Source: Escherichia coli
Lineage (GTDB): Bacteria; Pseudomonadota; Gammaproteobacteria; Enterobacterales; Enterobacteriaceae
NCBI RefSeq assembly: GCF_003334785.1
Contig: NZ_QOWV01000039.1
Direction: 5' to 3' (one strand)
Length of the DNA stretch: 6,249 nt
Part shown: positions 50 to 6,249 of the stretch, in pieces
Layout of the letters: the number at the start of each line of letters is the position of its first letter
Position numbering within the stretch: the first letter of the stretch is position 1
Translations under genes and position numbers: made by a program
Notes under the pieces: model-generated
Seen by the model: the letters and a program-made list of their open reading frames with translations, nothing else
Told to the model about the DNA's origin: nothing
The model's database searches: none

Positions 50-379
50 TCACCAATAAATAAGCGTCAATACGGTGCTCCGTTGACGCTTACAGAGAAT
101 GCGTTTGACCGCCTCGCTATATACTTCCGAGCGTTCTCTTTTCCCAACAGAAATCACGAAAACGACAACTTTCTCGTCTATAACCTGGTATACAAGGCGA
201 TAGCCTGAAGACCGGAGCTTAATCTTGTAACAATCAGGCATACCACGGAGCTTGTTTGCTTCAATCCGGGGTGACTCAAGTACTTCAACCAGCTTCTTTT
301 TCAACTGTTCACGTACCGTCGAGCCCAGCTTTCGCCATTCCTTTAGTGCCCGCTCGTCAAAATCCAGAAAATACGCCAT
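50..379 (-). CDS. relE: RelE mRNA-interferase toxin (RelE/ParE family), 109 aa; first 95 aa match E. coli RelE as recalled, followed by a 14-aa C-terminal extension
   Basis: Translation MAYFLDFDERALKEWRKLGSTV...VYSEAVKRIL is recognisably RelE; start codon shares one base with the relB stop (TGATG); the gene sits directly downstream of relB on the same strand. Confidence 0.9.
   Translation of the reverse strand: MAYFLDFDERALKEWRKLGSTVREQLKKKLVEVLESPRIEANKLRGMPDCYKIKLRSSGYRLVYQVIDEKVVVFVISVGKRERSEVYSEAVKRILCKRQRSTVLTLIYW
53..91 (-). terminator. Stem-loop (9-bp stem 62-70/83-91, inner CGG/CCG pairs) followed on the minus strand by UAUUUAUU; probable terminator or mRNA fold at the relE 3' end
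   Basis: Inverted repeat AAGCGTCAA...TTGACGCTT read directly; U-rich tract follows on the minus strand. The extended relE ORF reads through it. Confidence 0.4.
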
Positions 380-618
380 CAGAGTTCATCCAGCGTCACA
401 CGTACTGGCTTAGGATTACGAAGCCGTTCTTTCACTATCTCCACAAGTTCAGCATCTTCATCACTCAGGAGTGTCTGTTTGAACGGCAAGCGTTCATTGT
501 CAGCGATATACTCGAGCATGAGACGAAGCGCTTCAGAAGGAGTTACACCCATTTTTTCAAGCGCGGCGTAAGAACGCGCTTTAAGTTCATCGTCAATACG
601 CAGGTTAATGCTACCCAT
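379..618 (-). CDS. relB: RelB antitoxin, 79 aa
   Basis: Translation MGSINLRIDDELKARSYA...PKPVRVTLDEL matches RelB as recalled; GAGGTG Shine-Dalgarno about 6 nt upstream of the ATG; overlaps the relE start. Confidence 0.92.
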   Translation of the reverse strand: MGSINLRIDDELKARSYAALEKMGVTPSEALRLMLEYIADNERLPFKQTLLSDEDAELVEIVKERLRNPKPVRVTLDEL

Positions 619-700
619 GTCTTACACCTCTTGTAATTACAAATGTCATTACAAGTATCGCACTACAACATGCTTAGGGCAAGTCACGAAGGAAGTCAGA
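619..700 (-). promoter_or_regulatory. relBE promoter region with relO-type operator (perfect 12-bp palindrome TTGTAATTACAA at 631-642, plus partial repeat to 655)
   Basis: Palindrome read directly, immediately upstream of relB; consistent with RelB/RelE autoregulation at an operator overlapping the promoter. Exact -35/-10 positions not resolved by eye. Confidence 0.6.
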
Positions 701-948
701 AAGTAGTCGTAAGAACGGTGATCACTGTCCGCTTTGTGCCAGGAGCAGCCATTGCTAAGTCCATCCTGTATTGTGCAGGTCAGCTCGTTTTTAAAGAGTC
801 CGGCCATCATCTTACTGGTACAGACACCATATACTTTGTGACGGTCAGGCTACATATGCACAACTCAACTTATTCATCTATTTTTTGCTTTAGCATGTCA
901 GTGTTGCTTTCTCGTCGGCGGGTGAGCGGTGACCTGACCTGTCGATAA
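643..948 (+). CDS. ydfV: Hypothetical protein, 101 aa, in the position and of the size of E. coli ydfV (divergent from relB)
   Basis: ORF of the expected length between relB and flxA; no recognisable Shine-Dalgarno; the start lies inside the relO operator. Protein sequence not independently recognised. Confidence 0.35.
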   Translation: MSLQVSHYNMLRASHEGSQKVVVRTVITVRFVPGAAIAKSILYCAGQLVFKESGHHLTGTDTIYFVTVRLHMHNSTYSSIFCFSMSVLLSRRRVSGDLTCR

Positions 949-1100
949 AGGAACGTAACACGTTTTATGCAACACCCGCATGCGGCAGAAAATTATTGCC
1001 GAACGTTTACCCCTGTCAACAAGCTTTACTTTCTGAGGCGCGCCAGCCCGCGAGGAAAACAATCTGAACATCAAACAATTAATGACACAAGAAATACGAT

Positions 1101-1127
1101 TAAAGATTTTTTTGTGCATGCCGATAG
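1101..1127 (+). promoter_or_regulatory. sigma28 (FliA)-type promoter: TAAAGATT, 11-bp spacer, GCCGATAG
   Basis: Matches the sigma28 consensus TAAAGTTT-N11-GCCGATAA at 7/8 and 7/8 with the exact spacer, about 24 bp upstream of the flxA start; flxA is a known FliA-dependent gene. Confidence 0.6.
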
Positions 1128-1150
1128 TGCTTTTTTAAAAGGAGAAATCT

Positions 1151-1483
1151 ATGTCTGTCACAATTCAGGGAAATACCTCAACCGTTATTTCAAACAACTC
1201 CGCCCCGGAAGGAACATCAGAAATAGCCAAAATCACAAGACAAATTCAGGTGCTGACTGAAAAGCTTGGGAAAATCTCATCGGAAGAGGGGATGACGACA
1301 CAGCAGAAAAAAGAAATGGCTGCATTGGTACAGAAGCAAATTGAAAGCCTCTGGGCTCAACTGGAGCAGTTGTTAAGGCAGCAGGCAGAGAAAAAGAATG
1401 AAGACGCGACAGTTCAGCCTGATAAAAAAGAAGAGAAAAAAGACGATACAAATACCGCTGGCACCATTGATATTTACGTCTAA
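1151..1483 (+). CDS. flxA: FlxA-like protein (FliA-regulated), 110 aa
   Basis: AAGGAG Shine-Dalgarno about 6 nt upstream of the ATG; translation MSVTIQGNTSTVISNNSAPEG... with a Q/E/K-rich coiled-coil-like centre; gene order relB-ydfV-flxA as in the Qin prophage. Confidence 0.85.
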   Translation: MSVTIQGNTSTVISNNSAPEGTSEIAKITRQIQVLTEKLGKISSEEGMTTQQKKEMAALVQKQIESLWAQLEQLLRQQAEKKNEDATVQPDKKEEKKDDTNTAGTIDIYV

Positions 1484-1497
1484 GTGACAGCCGTATT

Positions 1498-1522
1498 GTG
1501 GCCCTCATCGGGCCACTTTTCG
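1498..1522 (+). terminator. Rho-independent terminator downstream of flxA
   Basis: GTGGCCC-tcatc-GGGCCAC hairpin followed by TTTTC, 15 bp after the flxA stop. Confidence 0.6.
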
Positions 1523-1570
1523 CCATCAGCCTTTTCTTTAAAGACATATTATCTTTGTATCATTTCTGAT

Positions 1571-3419
1571 AGTTAACATTACAAGATATAAGTAATGGAC
1601 GCACTCCCAATTAGTCTATTTAAATCGCCACGAGTTTAACTGACAACCCATGATCAATTATGAATTGCAACTATTTCTGTAGTCACTTTTGTGGGGACAG
1701 TCCACAAAACTGCCAACTTCCGCTTCTTGCTCTTAGCGGACATTAGCATAGGCTATTTACCATAACGCCTCATTACGCGCACCGCCCAGACTGACTCAGC
1801 GCGTTTCTGGCATATCCCCGGTAAAACAAGTAACAAACCACCCGAAAATGAACACCAGAAACGCGACTTAAGAATCTACCCTATGAATGGATATGCACTC
1901 AACCGAATCGATCTTGGTTTCAATCTTTTTTATCGGGATCAGGCTTCTTTTTAGGTAACTTCGGGGGCTTAACTTGCTGATGACTTTGCGTTCGGCGCGT
2001 AAGCCAGGGATGGTCAGCTTTAGGTTTAACATAGTATTTTGAGCGTAAATCAATACGGGCATTATCCACTCGTTCATGGACACTCTTTTCATCATCCAGT
2101 GGTATAGGCTCCGGGCCATCAACATACTTTTCCCAGCCCAGCGCTTTCCCGTCATACAGAACGTTAATTTCACCGTCAAAGTTCTCGCATACAGTAACAA
2201 CCGAATGCCTAAGTCGATATCCCCGGCCCTCACTGCGTACCTGAAACGCACTGCTTTTGTACTGGAAAGTGAGATTTTTAGACAGAACGCGCTTCGCCTG
2301 TAGGCTGAAGATATAACCCAGTTCCTCTTCAGAATGGTGCACATCAAGATGAGCATTATCAGTAGTACGAGGCGACGTAGCGAACCGGTTGTTATAGGCT
2401 TCAATAAAGGTCGGCAACCATGCATTTGCTGTTTCAATATCACTGATATTCTGAAGCCGCATTTCTTTGACCAGCCTGTCCTGTAGTGTCTGATTGGCGC
2501 GCTCTACCCGCCCTTTTGCCTGCGGGCTGTTGGCATGGATTGGCTCGATGCCCAGTGTCTTTATCGCACGAGTGAACTGGGTCAGCTCACCTTCCCGCTC
2601 TGGGTTATTTACCCTGAATATACTGTGTCTATCAGAGTAGAGAGCGAGCGGTACGCCATGATCATTAAGGTAACCCCGGAGGGTTTCCATGTAAGCCCGG
2701 GTTGTTTCAGCAGGCACAAAACGCAACGCCATCAACGCACTGGTGGCATCATCAATGAAAACGATCAGTGTACATCTGGGGCCTCGATTTTCAAACCAGT
2801 CATGAGGTGAGCCATCAATCTGGATCAGTTCACCGTAAGATGGTCGTCGCATGCGGCGTTGATATATACGGGCAATTTTACGACGGCGTTCACGCCATAA
2901 CCCCTCTTCTATCATCCACTTTCTGAGAGTTTCAACGGATAAAGATAAACCGTGTATCTCGCGCAATTTTTCGCACGCAAACGTAGGTCCAAAATCAGCG
3001 TAACGGCCTTTGAGGAGTGAAATTACTGTTGCTCTGAATTCAGTAGAAAAGGAATTATTAGGACGCTTTCCACGTCGGTGGGAAACCAGACCAGAAGGCC
3101 CTTCATTTCTATACCGTTGCACCAGACGTTTAACCTGCCGAATAGAAATGCCAATGCGTGCCGCAGCTTGTTCCTGAATAATCTGAAGTCGGTGGAGTTC
3201 CTTATGACTCATCGTAACAGTCTCTTTGATCATGAAAAATCCCCCAGAGAATTGTCTGGGGACATTTTAGAATGGTTCAAAGGGGACATTACAGCTTGGT
3301 GTTAACAATAGCCTGCTTCTCCGTGCCTTTCGGCACGTAAGAGGCTAACCTACATGTGTCTAGCATGAAATTGGCCTCAGATTAATGTTAAGCGTCTTGC
3401 AGGACGCGTAATGTTAACT
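1571..3419 (-). mobile_element. ISNCY-family (IS1202-group-like) insertion sequence; boundaries tentative
   Basis: Boundaries are placed at a perfect 12-bp inverted repeat (AGTTAACATTAC at 1571-1582; GTAATGTTAACT at 3408-3419) bracketing the transposase gene. No target-site duplication was found and a 12-mer match could arise by chance in 6 kb. Confidence 0.35.
1920..3233 (-). CDS. ISNCY-family DDE transposase (IS481/IS1202-like), 437 aa
   Basis: N-terminal helix-turn-helix (AARIGISIRQVKRLVQRY); integrase-type catalytic core with D in IQIDGS, D in FIDDATS and E in SPQAKGRVERANQTL; lysine/proline-rich C-terminal tail. An alternative ATG at 3212 (MSHKEL...) is in frame. Confidence 0.9.
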   Translation of the reverse strand: MIKETVTMSHKELHRLQIIQEQAAARIGISIRQVKRLVQRYRNEGPSGLVSHRRGKRPNNSFSTEFRATVISLLKGRYADFGPTFACEKLREIHGLSLSVETLRKWMIEEGLWRERRRKIARIYQRRMRRPSYGELIQIDGSPHDWFENRGPRCTLIVFIDDATSALMALRFVPAETTRAYMETLRGYLNDHGVPLALYSDRHSIFRVNNPEREGELTQFTRAIKTLGIEPIHANSPQAKGRVERANQTLQDRLVKEMRLQNISDIETANAWLPTFIEAYNNRFATSPRTTDNAHLDVHHSEEELGYIFSLQAKRVLSKNLTFQYKSSAFQVRSEGRGYRLRHSVVTVCENFDGEINVLYDGKALGWEKYVDGPEPIPLDDEKSVHERVDNARIDLRSKYYVKPKADHPWLTRRTQSHQQVKPPKLPKKKPDPDKKD

Positions 3420-3567
3420 GGGGCTTTTCTCTATCTGCCGTTGGTGTCCATGCCCGAGGCAGATAGCCTCAAGCACCCGCAGTCATTCTACTTAACTAAG
3501 ATTTCCCCGCAAACCGTTTTTGTCCAGCACAGTAAATATCCAACTAAACCAATGGAGTTCGCTGTAT

Positions 3568-3747
3568 TTACCGCCAGTATTCAATGCACATGACCGCCAT
3601 GAACACCCCTAAAAAAAGGGCATTTATATATCCAAATATTAATATCAAAACATCAACTTTTTCCATATACCTTGCTGTGAAGATGATGGGCATACATGAT
3701 GCGAACAACCAGAACGCAACAAACAAAAACTGCAATGCGTTTTTCAT
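3568..3747 (-). CDS. Small hydrophobic membrane protein, 59 aa, two predicted transmembrane helices
   Basis: Consensus AGGAGG Shine-Dalgarno 5 nt upstream of the ATG at 3747; translation MKNALQFLFVAFWLFASCMPIIFTARYMEKVDVLILIFGYINALFLGVFMAVMCIEYWR. The ORF-track version (start 3786) has no ribosome-binding site. Confidence 0.45.
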   Translation of the reverse strand: MKNALQFLFVAFWLFASCMPIIFTARYMEKVDVLILIFGYINALFLGVFMAVMCIEYWR

Positions 3748-4001
3748 TATTCCTCCTACAATCAATGTGCAATTACATTTAAACACACCTCAATTTGGCC
3801 GGACATATAAATATCTAAACCAGAAAAAATCACTTACATAGCGTTACAAACTCTTTAGTCTAAAGGTTCATCGTAAAACATTCCCCATACTTATCAGTCC
3901 GTTCCGCGCCAGGTAGCTCATTGCCTTATCTGGCAACCTGTAATCAGGTTTCCGCTTTTTCAGTTGGCTGGTCGTTTAACCGACATAGTTAATCCATTAA
4001 T

Positions 4002-4289
4002 CTAGTTGCCGGATGTTGGTGGATTTTCGCGTTTTAGTTGTTCATAAAAGTGCACAGCTTTAACCAGTTCTTCTGATGTAACTGGGACTGGTGAGGCAGT
4101 GAATAAGGCCTGAATTTGATAGTTCGGCCTGTCGTTACAATCCTCTTTTTTCGGTACATATTTCCAGTCACCAGACCACTACTTCCCCTGAAAGTCCGTA
4201 ACGCCTTTTTTCACGTAGCGATATCGCCATGCCACTGGTTTTGCTTGCCCCGCCGTTTCATGCCCTTCCTGATAATTAATCTCGCTCAT
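4002..4289 (-). pseudogene. Small prophage-like ORF (about 95 codons) interrupted by an in-frame amber codon at 4179-4181
   Basis: Reads MSEINYQEGHETAGQAKPVAWRYRYVKKGVTDFQGK-TAG-WSGDWKYVPKKEDCNDRPNYQIQ...; its ATG overlaps the TGA of the upstream ORF (ATGA). Confidence 0.25.
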
Positions 4290-4477
4290 TCATCGCCCCA
4301 CTCATCACAATATGCTTCGACCGGAGTTTTTCCCGCTTCATAGTCATCACGCTAGGATTCGACATCAGCAGCACTTCCACCGCGTAACTCACCATAGTCC
4401 ATTAATAGTTCATCCCGCTCTTCAAAACTGATGTTATATTTAGCTGAACAAAAATCAGCCACTTTGTTCTTCCTCAT
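4286..4477 (-). pseudogene. Small acidic ORF (about 63 codons) interrupted by an in-frame amber codon at 4352-4354
   Basis: Reads MRKNKVADFCSAKYNISFEERDELLMDYGELRGGSAADVES-TAG-RDDYEAGKTPVEAYCDEWGDE; an internal GTG at codon 6 is preceded by GAGGAAG; stop overlaps the next start. Confidence 0.2.
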
Positions 4478-4899
4478 CGTCTTTTATTTCGTGGTATGAG
4501 TAATTGCAGTAGTTAAAGAAAATTTCTTATGCTCCGTCATGAATTTCCTCAGGTGTTGCGTCATCGTCCACTTCGAATACATCCTCAAAATCTCCACCAG
4601 CTATTCCCGTTTCAATAATAATTTTGAACTTTCGCATTTCACTACCGCCCTTTCGGGCGGCCTCCTGATGTTCTGAGGGTGCAGAAATCCATCCGGTTAA
4701 GGATTAAATTTTATTTACAGAACTGAATTTAATTATTCAGATATACGTATCTGTAGCCTTACGAATCTACTCACTGGATGCCTCTTTCATAAAAATAATC
4801 CAGTGGGTTTTATCGTTTTTTCCCTGTTCGTTGACAGATAACAGGTTTTCTGTCTGTCAGTGCCAGAATCTGGCTTACCGGTATTTGCGTTTCATTCCA

Positions 4900-5256
4900 T
4901 TAAAAAATCAGAACGCCGTGCGGCCTCAACACCCGAAAGGCTTCTTTAAATCTCTGTCGCGAATCATCACGCCAGGCATCTTTATTCAGCCGTCCATATT
5001 TCTTTCCCATCCAGGCGTTATCACCAACACTCTCAAGATGCGGAGGGTCTAATACAACCATCGAAAAAGATGCGTCTGCAAATGATAATGCACGAAAATC
5101 TGCGATAATGTCAGGGCTGATAATCAAGCGTCTCCCATTGCGTAATGTGTATCCTTCTTTTCTGATATCGCTGAATATCGCCCGTTCGTCAGACTTATCG
5201 AACCAGAACATGCGGCTGCCACAGCACATATCAAGAATGGTTGCCGGTGCACTCAC
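4900..5256 (-). CDS. Putative SAM-dependent methyltransferase (motif I ILDMCCGS; motif IV VVLDPPH), 118 aa; probably cut short by a premature TAA
   Basis: GTG start overlapping the stop of the upstream ORF; motif I and a DPPH motif about 55 residues apart, as in small N6-adenine/N4-cytosine-type methyltransferases; after the TAA at 4900-4902 the same frame stays open 29 codons (WNETQIPVSQILALTDRKPVICQRTGKKR). Confidence 0.6.
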   Translation of the reverse strand: MSAPATILDMCCGSRMFWFDKSDERAIFSDIRKEGYTLRNGRRLIISPDIIADFRALSFADASFSMVVLDPPHLESVGDNAWMGKKYGRLNKDAWRDDSRQRFKEAFRVLRPHGVLIF

Positions 5257-5519
5257 TGCGCCACGTCCTGAAAATTACCCTGATAGAAAGCCAGTATGCG
5301 CTGCATAACTTCGCTCTTCCGGCACTCGCGACAGATTATGTTTAGGCGACTGTCGTAGCGACGTATTTCTCCGTCAGGTGATGACCAGATAAGGTCCGGA
5401 TCAACCACAGCAGGTTTCTTCACCTTTGCCCTCGAGAGTTTTTTGCGGGCGTTTTGCCAGTCCTTACGCGCCTGTTCAGAGGGGAATAACCCGTATCCGG
5501 AGCTTAAGTTGCACGCCAT
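5253..5519 (-). CDS. Hypothetical basic protein, 88 aa (contains CRECRK), coupled to the methyltransferase gene
   Basis: Stop overlaps the methyltransferase GTG start (GTGA); no clear Shine-Dalgarno; its 5' end overlaps the longest version of the opposite-strand ORF. Confidence 0.3.
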   Translation of the reverse strand: MACNLSSGYGLFPSEQARKDWQNARKKLSRAKVKKPAVVDPDLIWSSPDGEIRRYDSRLNIICRECRKSEVMQRILAFYQGNFQDVAQ

Positions 5520-5892
5520 TGGGTGGGTTAAGCATAAATGTATTCCTGGTGCTAAATGGCCCGAAATTCAGGCAGAGATGCGCATCTGGAAAAAACGTCG
5601 CGAAGGTGAACGCAAGGAAACCGGAAAATACACGTCTGTTGTTGATCTCGCCCGCGCCAGAGCCAATCAACAGTACACTGAAAATTCAACAGGAAAAATC
5701 AGCCCGGTCATTGCTGCCATTCATCGCGAATACAAGCAGACATGGAAAACACTGGATGACGAACTGGCCTACGCTCTCTGGCCTAGTGATGTGGATGCCG
5801 GAAACATTGACGGCAGCATCCATCGCTGGGCAAAAAAAGAAGTTATCGACAACGACCGCGAAGACTGGAAGCGTGAGGTGTACTGGCAATAG
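5443..5892 (+). CDS. Hypothetical protein of unknown function (149 aa from TTG 5443; alternative starts TTG 5509 with a GGAG site, or ATG 5578)
   Basis: Long open frame with mixed charged composition (…KISPVIAAIHREYKQTWKTLDDELAYALWPSDVDAGNIDGSIHRWAKKEVIDNDREDWKREVYWQ); the 3' end abuts or lies within the IS3-family terminus. Confidence 0.45.
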   Translation: MRAFCQSLRACSEGNNPYPELKLHAIGWVKHKCIPGAKWPEIQAEMRIWKKRREGERKETGKYTSVVDLARARANQQYTENSTGKISPVIAAIHREYKQTWKTLDDELAYALWPSDVDAGNIDGSIHRWAKKEVIDNDREDWKREVYWQ

Positions 5893-6249
5893 CGGACACT
5901 ACCATTTGTTCTTTTTTTAAGCAGCCATCTGATGATATTTTTCCCTGAAGGCTGCCGGGGAGATATTCCCCAGACGAGAGTGACGACGCTGACGATTGTA
6001 GAAAATCTCAATGTATTCCCGTATTACTGAGATGGCTTCATCCCGGTTATTAAAACGATAGTGGCTCAGGCTCTCATTTTTCAGCGTTCCCCAGAAGCTT
6101 TCCATCGGAGCGTTGTCGTAACAGTTACCTTTACGCGACATTGATGTTTTCAGACCAAACTGCTCCTGTATGACCCGGTAATCGTATGCGCAGTACTGTG
6201 AACCTCGATCGGAGTGGTGGATTAGCACGGCAGGTGGGCGCTGGCTCCT
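5874..6249 (-). mobile_element. IS3-family insertion sequence, partial (continues beyond window); terminus near 5874-5900
   Basis: Transposase OrfB C-terminus ends at 5917; the adjacent GGCAATAGCGGACAC (5885-5899) resembles the IS3 terminal repeat as recalled (GCAATAGTGGACAC). Exact terminal base uncertain by about 10 bp. Confidence 0.6.
5917..6249 (-). CDS. IS3-family transposase OrfB (integrase core), C-terminal part; 5' end lies outside the window
   Basis: Translation ...VLIHHSDRGSQYCAYDYR...MSRKGNCYDNAPMESFWGTLKNE...YNRQRRHSRLGNISPAAF carries the IS3-family DDE-region signatures (HSDRGSQY; KGNCYDNAPMESF); the frame stays open to the window edge. Confidence 0.9.
   Translation of the reverse strand, partial: RSQRPPAVLIHHSDRGSQYCAYDYRVIQEQFGLKTSMSRKGNCYDNAPMESFWGTLKNESLSHYRFNNRDEAISVIREYIEIFYNRQRRHSRLGNISPAAFREKYHQMAA

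What the first reader, a model, noticed from the sequence alone, without database searches (positions are those of the whole stretch)
4900..5519. Solitary DPPH-motif methyltransferase module with a coupled 88-aa basic partner and no restriction gene
The methyltransferase carries motif I (ILDMCCGS) at its extreme N-terminus and a DPPH motif about 55 residues later, a small gamma-like architecture. It is translationally coupled to an upstream basic 88-aa ORF containing CRECRK. No endonuclease-like gene is nearby. The pair could be an orphan phage methyltransferase (anti-restriction or epigenetic) with a DNA-binding partner, or one gene split by a frameshift (combined length about 206-235 aa).
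Basis: partly seen in the sequence, partly recalled or inferred. Interest (0 to 1): 0.55.

Follow-up and report, generated by a model that had tools for sequence, protein, structure and literature searches.

The report
Decayed prophage methyltransferase and DUF977 pseudogenes
The two overlapping reading frames are real, but they are dead leftovers in a decayed E. coli prophage: a phage methyltransferase gene cut short by a stop codon and a frameshift, next to the tail end of a neighbouring gene whose front half was deleted.

Summary
The window is the Qin-type defective prophage of E. coli and is 100% identical to many complete genomes. There is a 118-aa ORF with ILDMCCGS and DPPH, a GTGA stop/start overlap with a basic 88-aa ORF containing CRECRK, and no restriction gene.

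Neither ORF is an intact gene. Intact relatives of the methyltransferase are about 160 aa. In the window, the family-invariant codon Lys119 (AAA) is TAA (4900-4902), and a 1-nt insertion in GGGAAAAAA (4816-4824) shifts the rest of the gene. The ancestral gene spanned 4767-5256 and encoded 162 aa. The truncation removes the end of strand β5, one helix and strands β6-β7 of the Rossmann core.

The 88-aa ORF is codons 59-140 of a 140-aa DUF977 gene. A 4.6-kb deletion (junction 5493-5502) removed its winged-helix half, the whole immunity and replication region, and the 5' end of the divergent exonuclease VIII gene. The ORF's ATG lies in antisense exonuclease DNA.

In nine intact loci the upstream neighbour of the methyltransferase is never DUF977, although the 4-nt overlap recurs. 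The overlap is ordinary phage gene packing and does not indicate a partnership. The fusion idea is rejected.

The parent family is a catalogued but uncharacterised orphan phage methyltransferase. Its DNA substrate is inferred and has not been shown. This is ordinary prophage decay and of low interest.

The parts
4900..5256 (-). 118-aa ORF. It is the first 118 codons of an ancestral 162-codon phage SAM-dependent methyltransferase gene, with motif I (ILDMCCGS) at residues 7-14 and motif IV (DPPH) at residues 70-73.
   Evidence: ORF. (phrog_954, 6.7e-58, covering only profile positions 52-165 of 229). (tblastn of the intact 162-aa P0004: residues 1-146 align in this frame, 83.6% identity, with '*' at position 119).
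4900..4902 (-). Premature stop codon. TAA stands where intact relatives have AAA (Lys119, invariant in the family).
   Evidence: DNA alignment A1. Invariant columns K119 and W120 in the 52-sequence alignment A2. The TAA probe matches exactly in 473 of 5,426 genomes, and the AAA-reverted probe has no full-length exact match.
4816..4824 (-). GGGAAAAAA homopolymer tract carrying a 1-nt insertion. This is the second lesion, a frameshift.
   Evidence: gap against the Stx2c phage gene. (P0004 residues 145-161 align at 4823-4773 in the frame shifted by one base).
4767..4899 (-). Untranslated 3' remainder of the ancestral methyltransferase gene. It holds codons 120-162 in two frames (WNETQIPVSQILALTDRKPVICQRTGK, then NDKTHWIIFMKEASSE*).
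   Evidence: The ancestral TAG stop is at 4767-4769.
5253..5502 (-). 3' remnant (codons 59-140) of a 140-codon DUF977 ('LygF', Ren-like) gene. The N-terminal winged-helix half is missing.
   Evidence: PF06163, model positions 62-134 of 134, 1.4e-14. (phrog_142, positions 59-115 of 116). (PGAP: pseudogene, missing N-terminus). (comparison with the intact PhiR42_1 gene).
5493..5502 (.). Deletion junction, with up to 10 bp shared by both flanks (microhomology). Relative to PhiR42_1, about 4.6 kb is missing (record positions 4688-9297).
   Evidence: Window 903-5502 equals PhiR42_1 13897-9298 (99.9%), and window 5493-5874 equals PhiR42_1 4687-4306 (100%). The junction probe is found in 91 of 5,426 genomes.
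5503..5519 (-). Start of the 88-aa ORF, created by the junction (ATG at 5517-5519, residues MACNLS). It is read from the antisense strand of the exonuclease VIII fragment.
   Evidence: Homology to DUF977 DNA ends at about 5502, and this stretch is 100% exonuclease VIII DNA.
5493..5874 (+). Internal fragment (about codons 163-290 of 823) of a RecE-like exonuclease VIII gene. The deletion cut off its 5' end and IS600 cut off its 3' end.
   Evidence: phrog_2082, positions 156-290 of 823, 4.6e-94. (intact 823-aa gene in PhiR42_1).. (PGAP: pseudogene, missing both termini).
5875..6249 (-). End of an IS600 copy that interrupts the exonuclease gene. The C-terminus of its transposase lies at 5917-6228.
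   Evidence: IS3-like element IS600 family transposase, itself interrupted by IS30 beyond the window.
5253..5256 (-). GTGA overlap between the DUF977 stop codon and the methyltransferase GTG start codon.
   Evidence: The same 4-nt overlap with unrelated upstream genes occurs in 9 intact loci.

Best explanation
The region is a pair of adjacent pseudogene remnants in the nin-type region of a Qin-type defective lambdoid prophage of E. coli. It is not a working methyltransferase module.

The ancestral prophage resembled PhiR42_1. Its gene order was int-xis-exoVIII, then the dicA/dicC immunity region, then cII, O, DUF977 and the methyltransferase. The small (about 160 aa) orphan SAM-dependent methyltransferase sat directly behind the DUF977 gene with the compact 4-nt overlap that is common in phage operons.

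First, the methyltransferase gene acquired a nonsense mutation at the invariant Lys119 and a 1-nt insertion further downstream. Both lesions are already present in PhiR42_1.

Later, in a sub-lineage, a 4.6-kb deletion between short matching sequences joined the interior of the leftward exonuclease VIII gene to the interior of the rightward DUF977 gene. This removed both early promoters, the repressor and cro genes, the replication gene, and the winged-helix half of DUF977. The junction happens to supply an ATG that opens an 88-aa frame.

Shown here: the lesions, the breakpoints, the family membership, the conservation of the lost residues, and the variability of the upstream neighbour.

Inferred: the 118-aa product is inactive because it lacks the end of β5, one helix and strands β6-β7 of the Rossmann core, together with K119, W120, P138, G141 and W152. 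Also inferred: the ancestral enzyme methylated an exocyclic amino group (from the DPPH motif), most probably of phage DNA early in infection to evade host restriction.
For: Identity of the locus: the window is 100% identical to E. coli FORC 064 and others, and lies between relBE/flxA and rspB.

Intact relatives are 157-175 aa.

The nonsense codon and the 1-nt insertion are seen in the DNA alignment and by tblastn, which shows two frames and '*' at residue 119.

K119 and W120 are invariant, and P138, G141, W152, F155 and K157 are at least 90% conserved, across 52 diverse members. Relatives at the 50% clustering level align over residues 6-158.

The AF2 model of the intact protein has pLDDT 93.9, with β5 at 110-121, a helix at 127-131, β6 at 140-144 and β7 at 150-156.

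The deletion breakpoints were mapped against PhiR42_1. The DUF977 N-terminal region was predicted to be a winged helix in PMC2686095.

PGAP independently marks the DUF977 remnant, the exonuclease fragment and two downstream genes as pseudogenes.

The upstream neighbour is variable and never DUF977 in 9 intact loci.

Other short family members end at different points, and one (P0134) is a further-decayed version of this same allele. This argues for decay and against a conserved short isoform.

No sigma-70-like site was found on the minus strand upstream of 5519 (weak evidence).
Against: RefSeq/PGAP annotates the 118-aa product (WP_001310834.1) as an intact protein. The TAA allele is retained unchanged in 473 complete genomes, which could in principle reflect selection, although vertical inheritance within a young species explains it just as well.

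The IS600 and IS30 transposase genes upstream are in the same orientation, so read-through transcription of the remnants cannot be excluded.

No expression or methylome data were available. Inactivity of the truncated product is inferred from structure and conservation and was not measured.
Confidence: 0.9

Rival explanations
1. One reading: a functional orphan phage DNA methyltransferase (anti-restriction or epigenetic), translationally coupled to a small basic DNA-binding partner that supplies target recognition.
For: The motifs for SAM binding and amino-group methylation are intact in the 118-aa ORF. There is a 4-nt GTGA overlap and an AGGA 9 nt upstream of the GTG. The 88-aa ORF is basic, with pI 9.55. 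The family lacks a target-recognition domain of its own, being about 160 aa in total, so a partner is conceivable in principle.
Against: The methyltransferase lacks 44 of 162 residues, including invariant K119 and W120 and two core strands. The 88-aa ORF retains only the non-winged-helix half of DUF977, and its start codon is a deletion artefact present in only 91 of the 473 genomes that carry this methyltransferase allele. DUF977 is not the upstream gene in 9 of 9 intact loci. In a Klebsiella phage that has both genes, two other genes separate them.
Confidence: 0.03
2. One ancestral gene of about 206-235 aa, split into the 88-aa and 118-aa ORFs by a frameshift.
For: The two ORFs abut with a 4-nt overlap. 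Some family members are 205-255 aa, and the phrog_954 profile has 51 positions N-terminal to the window match.
Against: PhiR42_1 has a complete 140-aa DUF977 gene ending at the same stop codon, followed by the separate methyltransferase gene. Most intact members start within 15 residues of motif I (164 of 221). phmmer with DUF977 finds nothing at E<=10 in 268 family proteins, including those with N-terminal extensions. The two ORFs match different PHROG and Pfam families.
Confidence: 0.01
3. The truncated 118-aa protein has been retained for a new role, for example as a SAM-binding or regulatory half-domain. This would explain its persistence in hundreds of genomes and its annotation as an intact protein.
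For: The TAA allele is exact in 473 of 5,426 genomes, with no revertant. The ORF keeps its start codon, Shine-Dalgarno sequence and SAM-binding motifs.
Against: Neighbouring genes in the same stretch are also pseudogenes. The native promoters are deleted in this sub-lineage. A variant of the same allele (P0134) has a further internal deletion. The locus is a single vertically inherited chromosomal copy, so persistence needs no selection. A Rossmann sheet lacking β6-β7 is unlikely to fold; this last point is an inference.
Confidence: 0.05

Closest known systems
Small orphan phage methyltransferase family (PHROG phrog_954 'DNA methyltransferase'; PADLOC PDLC03288 MTase_II and PDLC03730 oMTase; RefSeq 'class I SAM-dependent methyltransferase', e.g. 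the intact 161-162-aa E. coli prophage proteins P0002 and P0004)
   Same: 83-85% identical over residues 1-146. It has the same motif I (D-x-CCG) and the invariant DPPH. It has the same kind of position in early phage operons, with a 4-nt overlap to the preceding gene, and no restriction partner.
   Different: The window copy has a stop at the invariant Lys119 and a frameshift, so it encodes only 118 of 162 residues. No member of the family could be found with an experimentally determined substrate.
Amino-group (N6-adenine / N4-cytosine) DNA methyltransferases with a (D/N/S)PP(Y/F/W/H) motif, gamma-type motif order (e.g. M.TaqI; Pfam N6_N4_Mtase PF01555)
   Same: Class I Rossmann fold, with motif I before motif IV, and a DPPH tetrapeptide at the end of β4. 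M.TaqI is recovered by Foldseek at E 1.4e-4.
DUF977 (PF06163) / phrog_142 'Ren-like exclusion protein', e.g. the 140-aa 'LygF' of phage PhiR42_1
   Same: Residues 7-88 of the 88-aa ORF are identical to residues 59-140 of the PhiR42_1 protein, apart from a synonymous DNA difference.
   Different: It lacks residues 1-58, the part predicted to be a winged-helix DNA-binding domain (PMC2686095). Six foreign residues (MACNLS) replace them.
Qin (Kim) cryptic prophage of E. coli K-12 and the inducible-looking relative Escherichia phage PhiR42_1 (PV340562)
   Same: The flanking genes are the same (relBE, ydfV, flxA, ydfW on one side; exoVIII, xis, int and rspB on the other). The window is 99.9-100% identical to PhiR42_1 over the shared DNA.
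   Different: This version lacks the 4.6-kb dicA/dicC immunity-replication segment, and it carries IS600::IS30 inside the exonuclease gene.

Membership tests
Small orphan phage methyltransferase family (phrog_954 / PADLOC MTase_II-oMTase) | Significant profile match | tested here: met
   phrog_954 at 6.7e-58 for the window ORF. The intact homologue P0002 matches PDLC03288 at 1.2e-73 over positions 3-164 of 169.
Small orphan phage methyltransferase family (phrog_954 / PADLOC MTase_II-oMTase) | Full-length conserved core (residues about 6-158, including invariant K119 and W120) | tested here: not met
   The window ORF ends at residue 118. The remainder is present but lies behind a TAA and a frameshift. 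The window copy is therefore a pseudogene of the family, not a functional member.
Amino-group DNA methyltransferases (N6A/N4C) | SAM-binding motif I and catalytic (D/N/S)PP(Y/F/W/H) motif IV | tested here: met
   ILDMCCGS at residues 7-14. D70, P71, P72 and H73 are invariant in 52 sequences.
Amino-group DNA methyltransferases (N6A/N4C) | Match to a curated DNA methyltransferase profile (Pfam N6_N4_Mtase, N6_Mtase, MethyltransfD12, etc.) | tested here: not met
   Only insignificant Methyltransf_11/25 hits for the window ORF and for intact homologues. N6_N4_Mtase matches 0 of 52 members at E<=0.001 and 15 of 52 at E<=0.1.
Amino-group DNA methyltransferases (N6A/N4C) | Target-recognition domain | tested here: not met
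   The AF2 model of the intact 161-aa protein is a bare Rossmann core with one small β-hairpin insertion at residues 34-46. There is no separate domain.
Amino-group DNA methyltransferases (N6A/N4C) | Closest structural relatives are DNA methyltransferases | tested here: inconclusive
Amino-group DNA methyltransferases (N6A/N4C) | Demonstrated methylation of DNA | not testable with these tools
   No methylome or biochemical data were available, and no paper was found.
DUF977 (PF06163) | Match to the C-terminal region of the family model | tested here: met
   PF06163 at 1.4e-14, model positions 62-134 of 134.
DUF977 (PF06163) | N-terminal winged-helix region (model positions 1-61) | tested here: not met
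   This region was deleted. Homology to the intact PhiR42_1 gene begins at codon 59.
Restriction-modification system | Cognate restriction endonuclease gene adjacent to the methyltransferase | tested here: not met
   None in the window or within 9 kb on either side. None in 12 loci with intact relatives.
Dedicated translationally coupled two-gene module | The same partner family is found upstream across relatives | tested here: not met
   The upstream gene is DUF2737 or an unrelated 177-205-aa protein in 9 of 9 loci, and the 4-nt overlap is kept. Only the Qin-type lineage has DUF977 directly upstream.

The most novel reading that the evidence does not exclude
The truncated 118-aa N-terminal half of the methyltransferase, which is fixed with its TAA in every Qin-type copy seen (473 genomes), may still be made, for instance by read-through from the upstream IS600/IS30. 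It might have been kept for a non-catalytic role such as SAM binding or interference with incoming phages that encode intact relatives. Separately, the parent family is a roughly 160-aa DPPH enzyme with no target-recognition domain, no Pfam model and no solved or characterised member. It may not be a sequence-specific DNA methyltransferase at all, and could instead act non-specifically on DNA or on RNA.
Probability: 0.04. Interest if true: 0.45.

Novelty: already known. Interest (0 to 1): 0.1.

Why it matters
It matters little for biology. The locus shows how prophage decay can create ORF pairs that look like operons: a deletion junction supplies a start codon, and normal phage gene packing supplies an apparent translational coupling.

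Two practical points follow. First, RefSeq presents the 118-aa product (WP_001310834.1) as an intact 'class I SAM-dependent methyltransferase' in hundreds of E. coli genomes, although it lacks a quarter of the conserved core. Surveys of orphan methyltransferases or of methylome determinants should not count it. Second, the intact parent family is very widespread in temperate phages (over 6,500 proteins at 90% clustering and about 2,000 representatives at 50%). It is unusually small, has no Pfam model and has no experimentally defined substrate. That makes it a reasonable target for a methylome experiment, but using an intact copy and not this one.

Tried and rejected
Pfam scans of the 118-aa ORF, of a 175-aa intact homologue and of all 52 alignment members gave no significant family.

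NCBIfam gave only sub-threshold hits.

A sequence search of the PDB with one protein found nothing. With a profile it found only weak generic or Trm11-type matches.

Literature searches for DUF977, for orphan methyltransferases in lambdoid prophages, for DPPH with motif IV, and for the Qin prophage with methyltransferase found nothing on either family beyond a 2009 fold prediction for DUF977.

The fusion (split-gene) hypothesis was tested and rejected.

A conserved short isoform was considered and rejected, because other short family members break at different positions.

Programmed read-through or frameshifting was considered and rejected. Two independent lesions would both have to be bypassed: a UAA stop, then a shift at a tract of only six A's. 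Intact relatives have neither lesion.

The promoter scan found no minus-strand site upstream of the 88-aa ORF, but this scan is weak evidence.

Full report
**What is in the sequence**

The window's minus strand carries an ORF of 118 aa (4900-5256, GTG start) and an ORF of 88 aa (5253-5519, ATG start). They overlap by the four bases GTGA. The 118-aa product has ILDMCCGS at residues 7-14 and DPPH at 70-73. The 88-aa product is basic (pI 9.55) and contains CRECRK. No restriction endonuclease is nearby.

**Where the window comes from**

The 4500-5950 stretch is 100% identical to many complete E. coli chromosomes. In strain FORC 064 the annotated neighbourhood is cspB/cspF, ydfT, ydfU, rem, hokD, relE, relB, ydfV, flxA and ydfW. 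These are followed by a partial ISNCY transposase, two pseudogenes, 'class I SAM-dependent methyltransferase', a DUF977 pseudogene (missing its N-terminus), an exonuclease pseudogene (missing both termini), IS600 interrupted by IS30, the rest of the exonuclease, xis, an integrase split by an IS66 element, and rspB. This is the Qin-type defective lambdoid prophage in a heavily decayed form.

**The methyltransferase ORF is a truncated pseudogene**

PHROG profile phrog_954 ('DNA methyltransferase') matches at 6.7e-58, but only over profile positions 52-165 of 229. Intact relatives are longer: 160 aa in Klebsiella phage ST846-OXA48phi9.2, 175 aa as the longest ORF in an Stx2c phage, and typically 157-170 aa among more than 6,500 database proteins. 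All of them continue ...VLIFKWNETQIPV... exactly where the window has a stop.

The DNA alignment shows TAA in the window where the Stx2c phage gene has AAA. It also shows one extra base in the tract GGGAAAAAA further downstream. tblastn with an intact 162-aa E. coli homologue (P0004) aligns residues 1-146 in one frame (83.6% identity, '*' at residue 119). Residues 145-161 align in the frame shifted by one base (4823-4773, 94% identity). The ancestral gene therefore spanned 4767-5256 and encoded 162 aa.

In an alignment of 52 members down to 40% identity, K119 and W120 are invariant. P138, G141, W152, F155 and K157 are at least 90% conserved. Representatives at the 50% clustering level align over residues 6-158. 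The lost part therefore belongs to the conserved core.

An AlphaFold2 model of the intact protein (pLDDT 93.9) places β5 at 110-121, a helix at 127-131, β6 at 140-144 and β7 at 150-156. The 118-aa product thus lacks the end of β5 and everything after it. I infer that it is inactive and probably does not fold.

**How common the allele is**

A 60-nt probe across the TAA matches exactly in 473 of 5,426 complete E. coli genomes, always once and always on the chromosome. The same probe reverted to AAA has no full-length exact match. The nonsense codon is therefore fixed in this prophage lineage, including in PhiR42_1, whose DUF977 gene and immunity/replication region are undeleted.

Other short members of the family end at different places, or run into unrelated sequence. 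One of them (P0134) is this same allele with a further internal deletion. This pattern indicates decay, not a conserved short isoform.

**The 88-aa ORF is the tail of a DUF977 gene with an accidental start**

Pfam DUF977 matches residues 9-84 to model positions 62-134 of 134 (1.4e-14). phrog_142 ('Ren-like exclusion protein') matches positions 59-115 of 116.

In phage PhiR42_1 of E. coli ECOR13 the gene is complete (140 aa, 'LygF') and ends at the same GTGA overlap with the same 118-aa methyltransferase ORF. BLAST of the window against PhiR42_1 gives two collinear blocks. Window 903-5502 equals record 13897-9298 (99.9%), and window 5493-5874 equals record 4687-4306 (100%).

The window therefore differs by a single deletion of about 4.6 kb, with up to 10 bp of shared sequence at the junction. 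In PhiR42_1 the deleted segment holds the following:
- the first ~162 codons of exonuclease VIII
- ydfD, ydfC and ydfB
- the dicA-type repressor and the dicC-type cro
- cII
- replication gene O
- the first 58 codons of DUF977

The two genes that were cut are divergently transcribed, so both lost their 5' ends and their promoters. The ATG of the 88-aa ORF (5517-5519) and its first six codons (MACNLS) lie in exonuclease DNA read backwards. The lost DUF977 part is the region previously predicted to be a winged-helix DNA-binding domain (PMC2686095), so the proposed DNA-binding role is weakened further. A junction probe is present in 91 genomes, a subset of the 473 with the methyltransferase allele.

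**Is DUF977 a partner of the methyltransferase?**

In nine loci encoding intact relatives (E. coli and Cronobacter prophages), the methyltransferase sits in the early-left 'ea' region between recombination genes and the integrase. It starts 4 nt before the end of the preceding gene in every case. That preceding gene is DUF2737 or an unrelated 177-205-aa protein, and never DUF977. In a Klebsiella phage that has both genes, two other genes lie between them. The overlap is therefore generic phage gene packing.

The alternative of one gene split by a frameshift also fails. Both genes are complete and separate in PhiR42_1. Most members start within 15 residues of motif I. phmmer with DUF977 finds nothing in 268 family proteins.

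**What the intact family is**

The family is catalogued as a DNA methyltransferase by PHROGs and by PADLOC, whose MTase_II model matches at 1.2e-73 and oMTase model at 2.2e-49. RefSeq calls it only 'class I SAM-dependent methyltransferase'.

From established knowledge of these enzymes, the invariant DPPH is the signature of methyl transfer to an exocyclic amino group: m6A or m4C in DNA, m2G or m6A in RNA, or glutamine in HemK. The family has no target-recognition domain. Its position in early phage operons without a restriction gene fits a self-protective orphan DNA methyltransferase, but the substrate remains an inference. I found no paper on it.

**Verdict**

It also misses that both ORFs are fragments. 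The best explanation is ordinary prophage decay (confidence 0.9).

The residual uncertainties are these. PGAP treats the 118-aa product as intact. The upstream IS600 and IS30 transposase genes are co-oriented, so read-through transcription could occur. No expression or methylome data could be consulted.

Novelty: already known kinds of genes, in a known cryptic prophage. Interest is low.

Noticed in passing
window 3307-3478 (-): Full-length Rfam match to the sok antitoxin RNA (RF01794, 104 bits against a gathering score of 59). This suggests a hok/sok-type type I toxin-antitoxin locus between the ISNCY transposase and the nin-region pseudogenes. The overlapping plus-strand ORF 3411-3593 ends in ...EFAVFTA..., which is reminiscent of Hok peptides. 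PGAP annotates nothing here in FORC 064.
   Followed up: no
window 1920-3233 (-): A continuous 437-aa ORF. PGAP splits it into a partial ISNCY-family transposase (2190-3212, 'missing C-terminus') and the 49-aa 'protein YdfW' (1920-2069). YdfW therefore looks like the out-of-context tail of a chimeric transposase ORF.
   Followed up: no
window 3868-4289 (-) and 4455-4637 (-): Two more pseudogenes lie directly downstream of the methyltransferase: a hypothetical protein (frameshifted, internal stop) and a DUF7167 family protein (internal stop). The whole nin-type stretch is decaying.
   Followed up: partly
window 5875-6249 and L001 10418-14467: The RecE-like exonuclease VIII gene is cut a second time by an IS600 copy, which is itself interrupted by IS30. 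The rest of the exonuclease gene resumes beyond them (L001 12860-14467). Further on, the integrase is split by an IS66-family element.
   Followed up: partly
window 4900-5256 (-) / RefSeq WP_001310834.1: RefSeq annotates the 118-aa truncated product as an intact 'class I SAM-dependent methyltransferase' in hundreds of genomes. Its neighbours are flagged as pseudogenes. This is a likely annotation error.
   Followed up: yes
protein P0001 (294 aa, metagenome): A family member that consists of one and a half to two tandem copies of the methyltransferase domain fused in one ORF. It may be a duplication or an assembly artefact.
   Followed up: no
protein P0134 (120 aa): A variant of the same Qin-type allele in which an internal deletion removes ...VLRPHGVLIF*WN..., including the TAA. 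The ORF then runs on to the second stop (…QRTGKKR*). This is further decay of the same pseudogene in another strain.
   Followed up: partly
window 50-618 (-), 643-948 (+), 1151-1483 (+): Intact relE and relB (a type II toxin-antitoxin pair), ydfV and flxA at the left end of the window. They are the familiar Qin prophage cargo genes.
   Followed up: partly
L006-L014 (intact relatives): In P22/lambda-like prophages the intact methyltransferase lies in the 'ea' region, usually followed by an Ead/Ea22-family gene and DUF551. In the Qin-type and Klebsiella phages it lies after the replication genes instead. The gene is a mobile moron-like cassette that appears in either early operon.
   Followed up: partly
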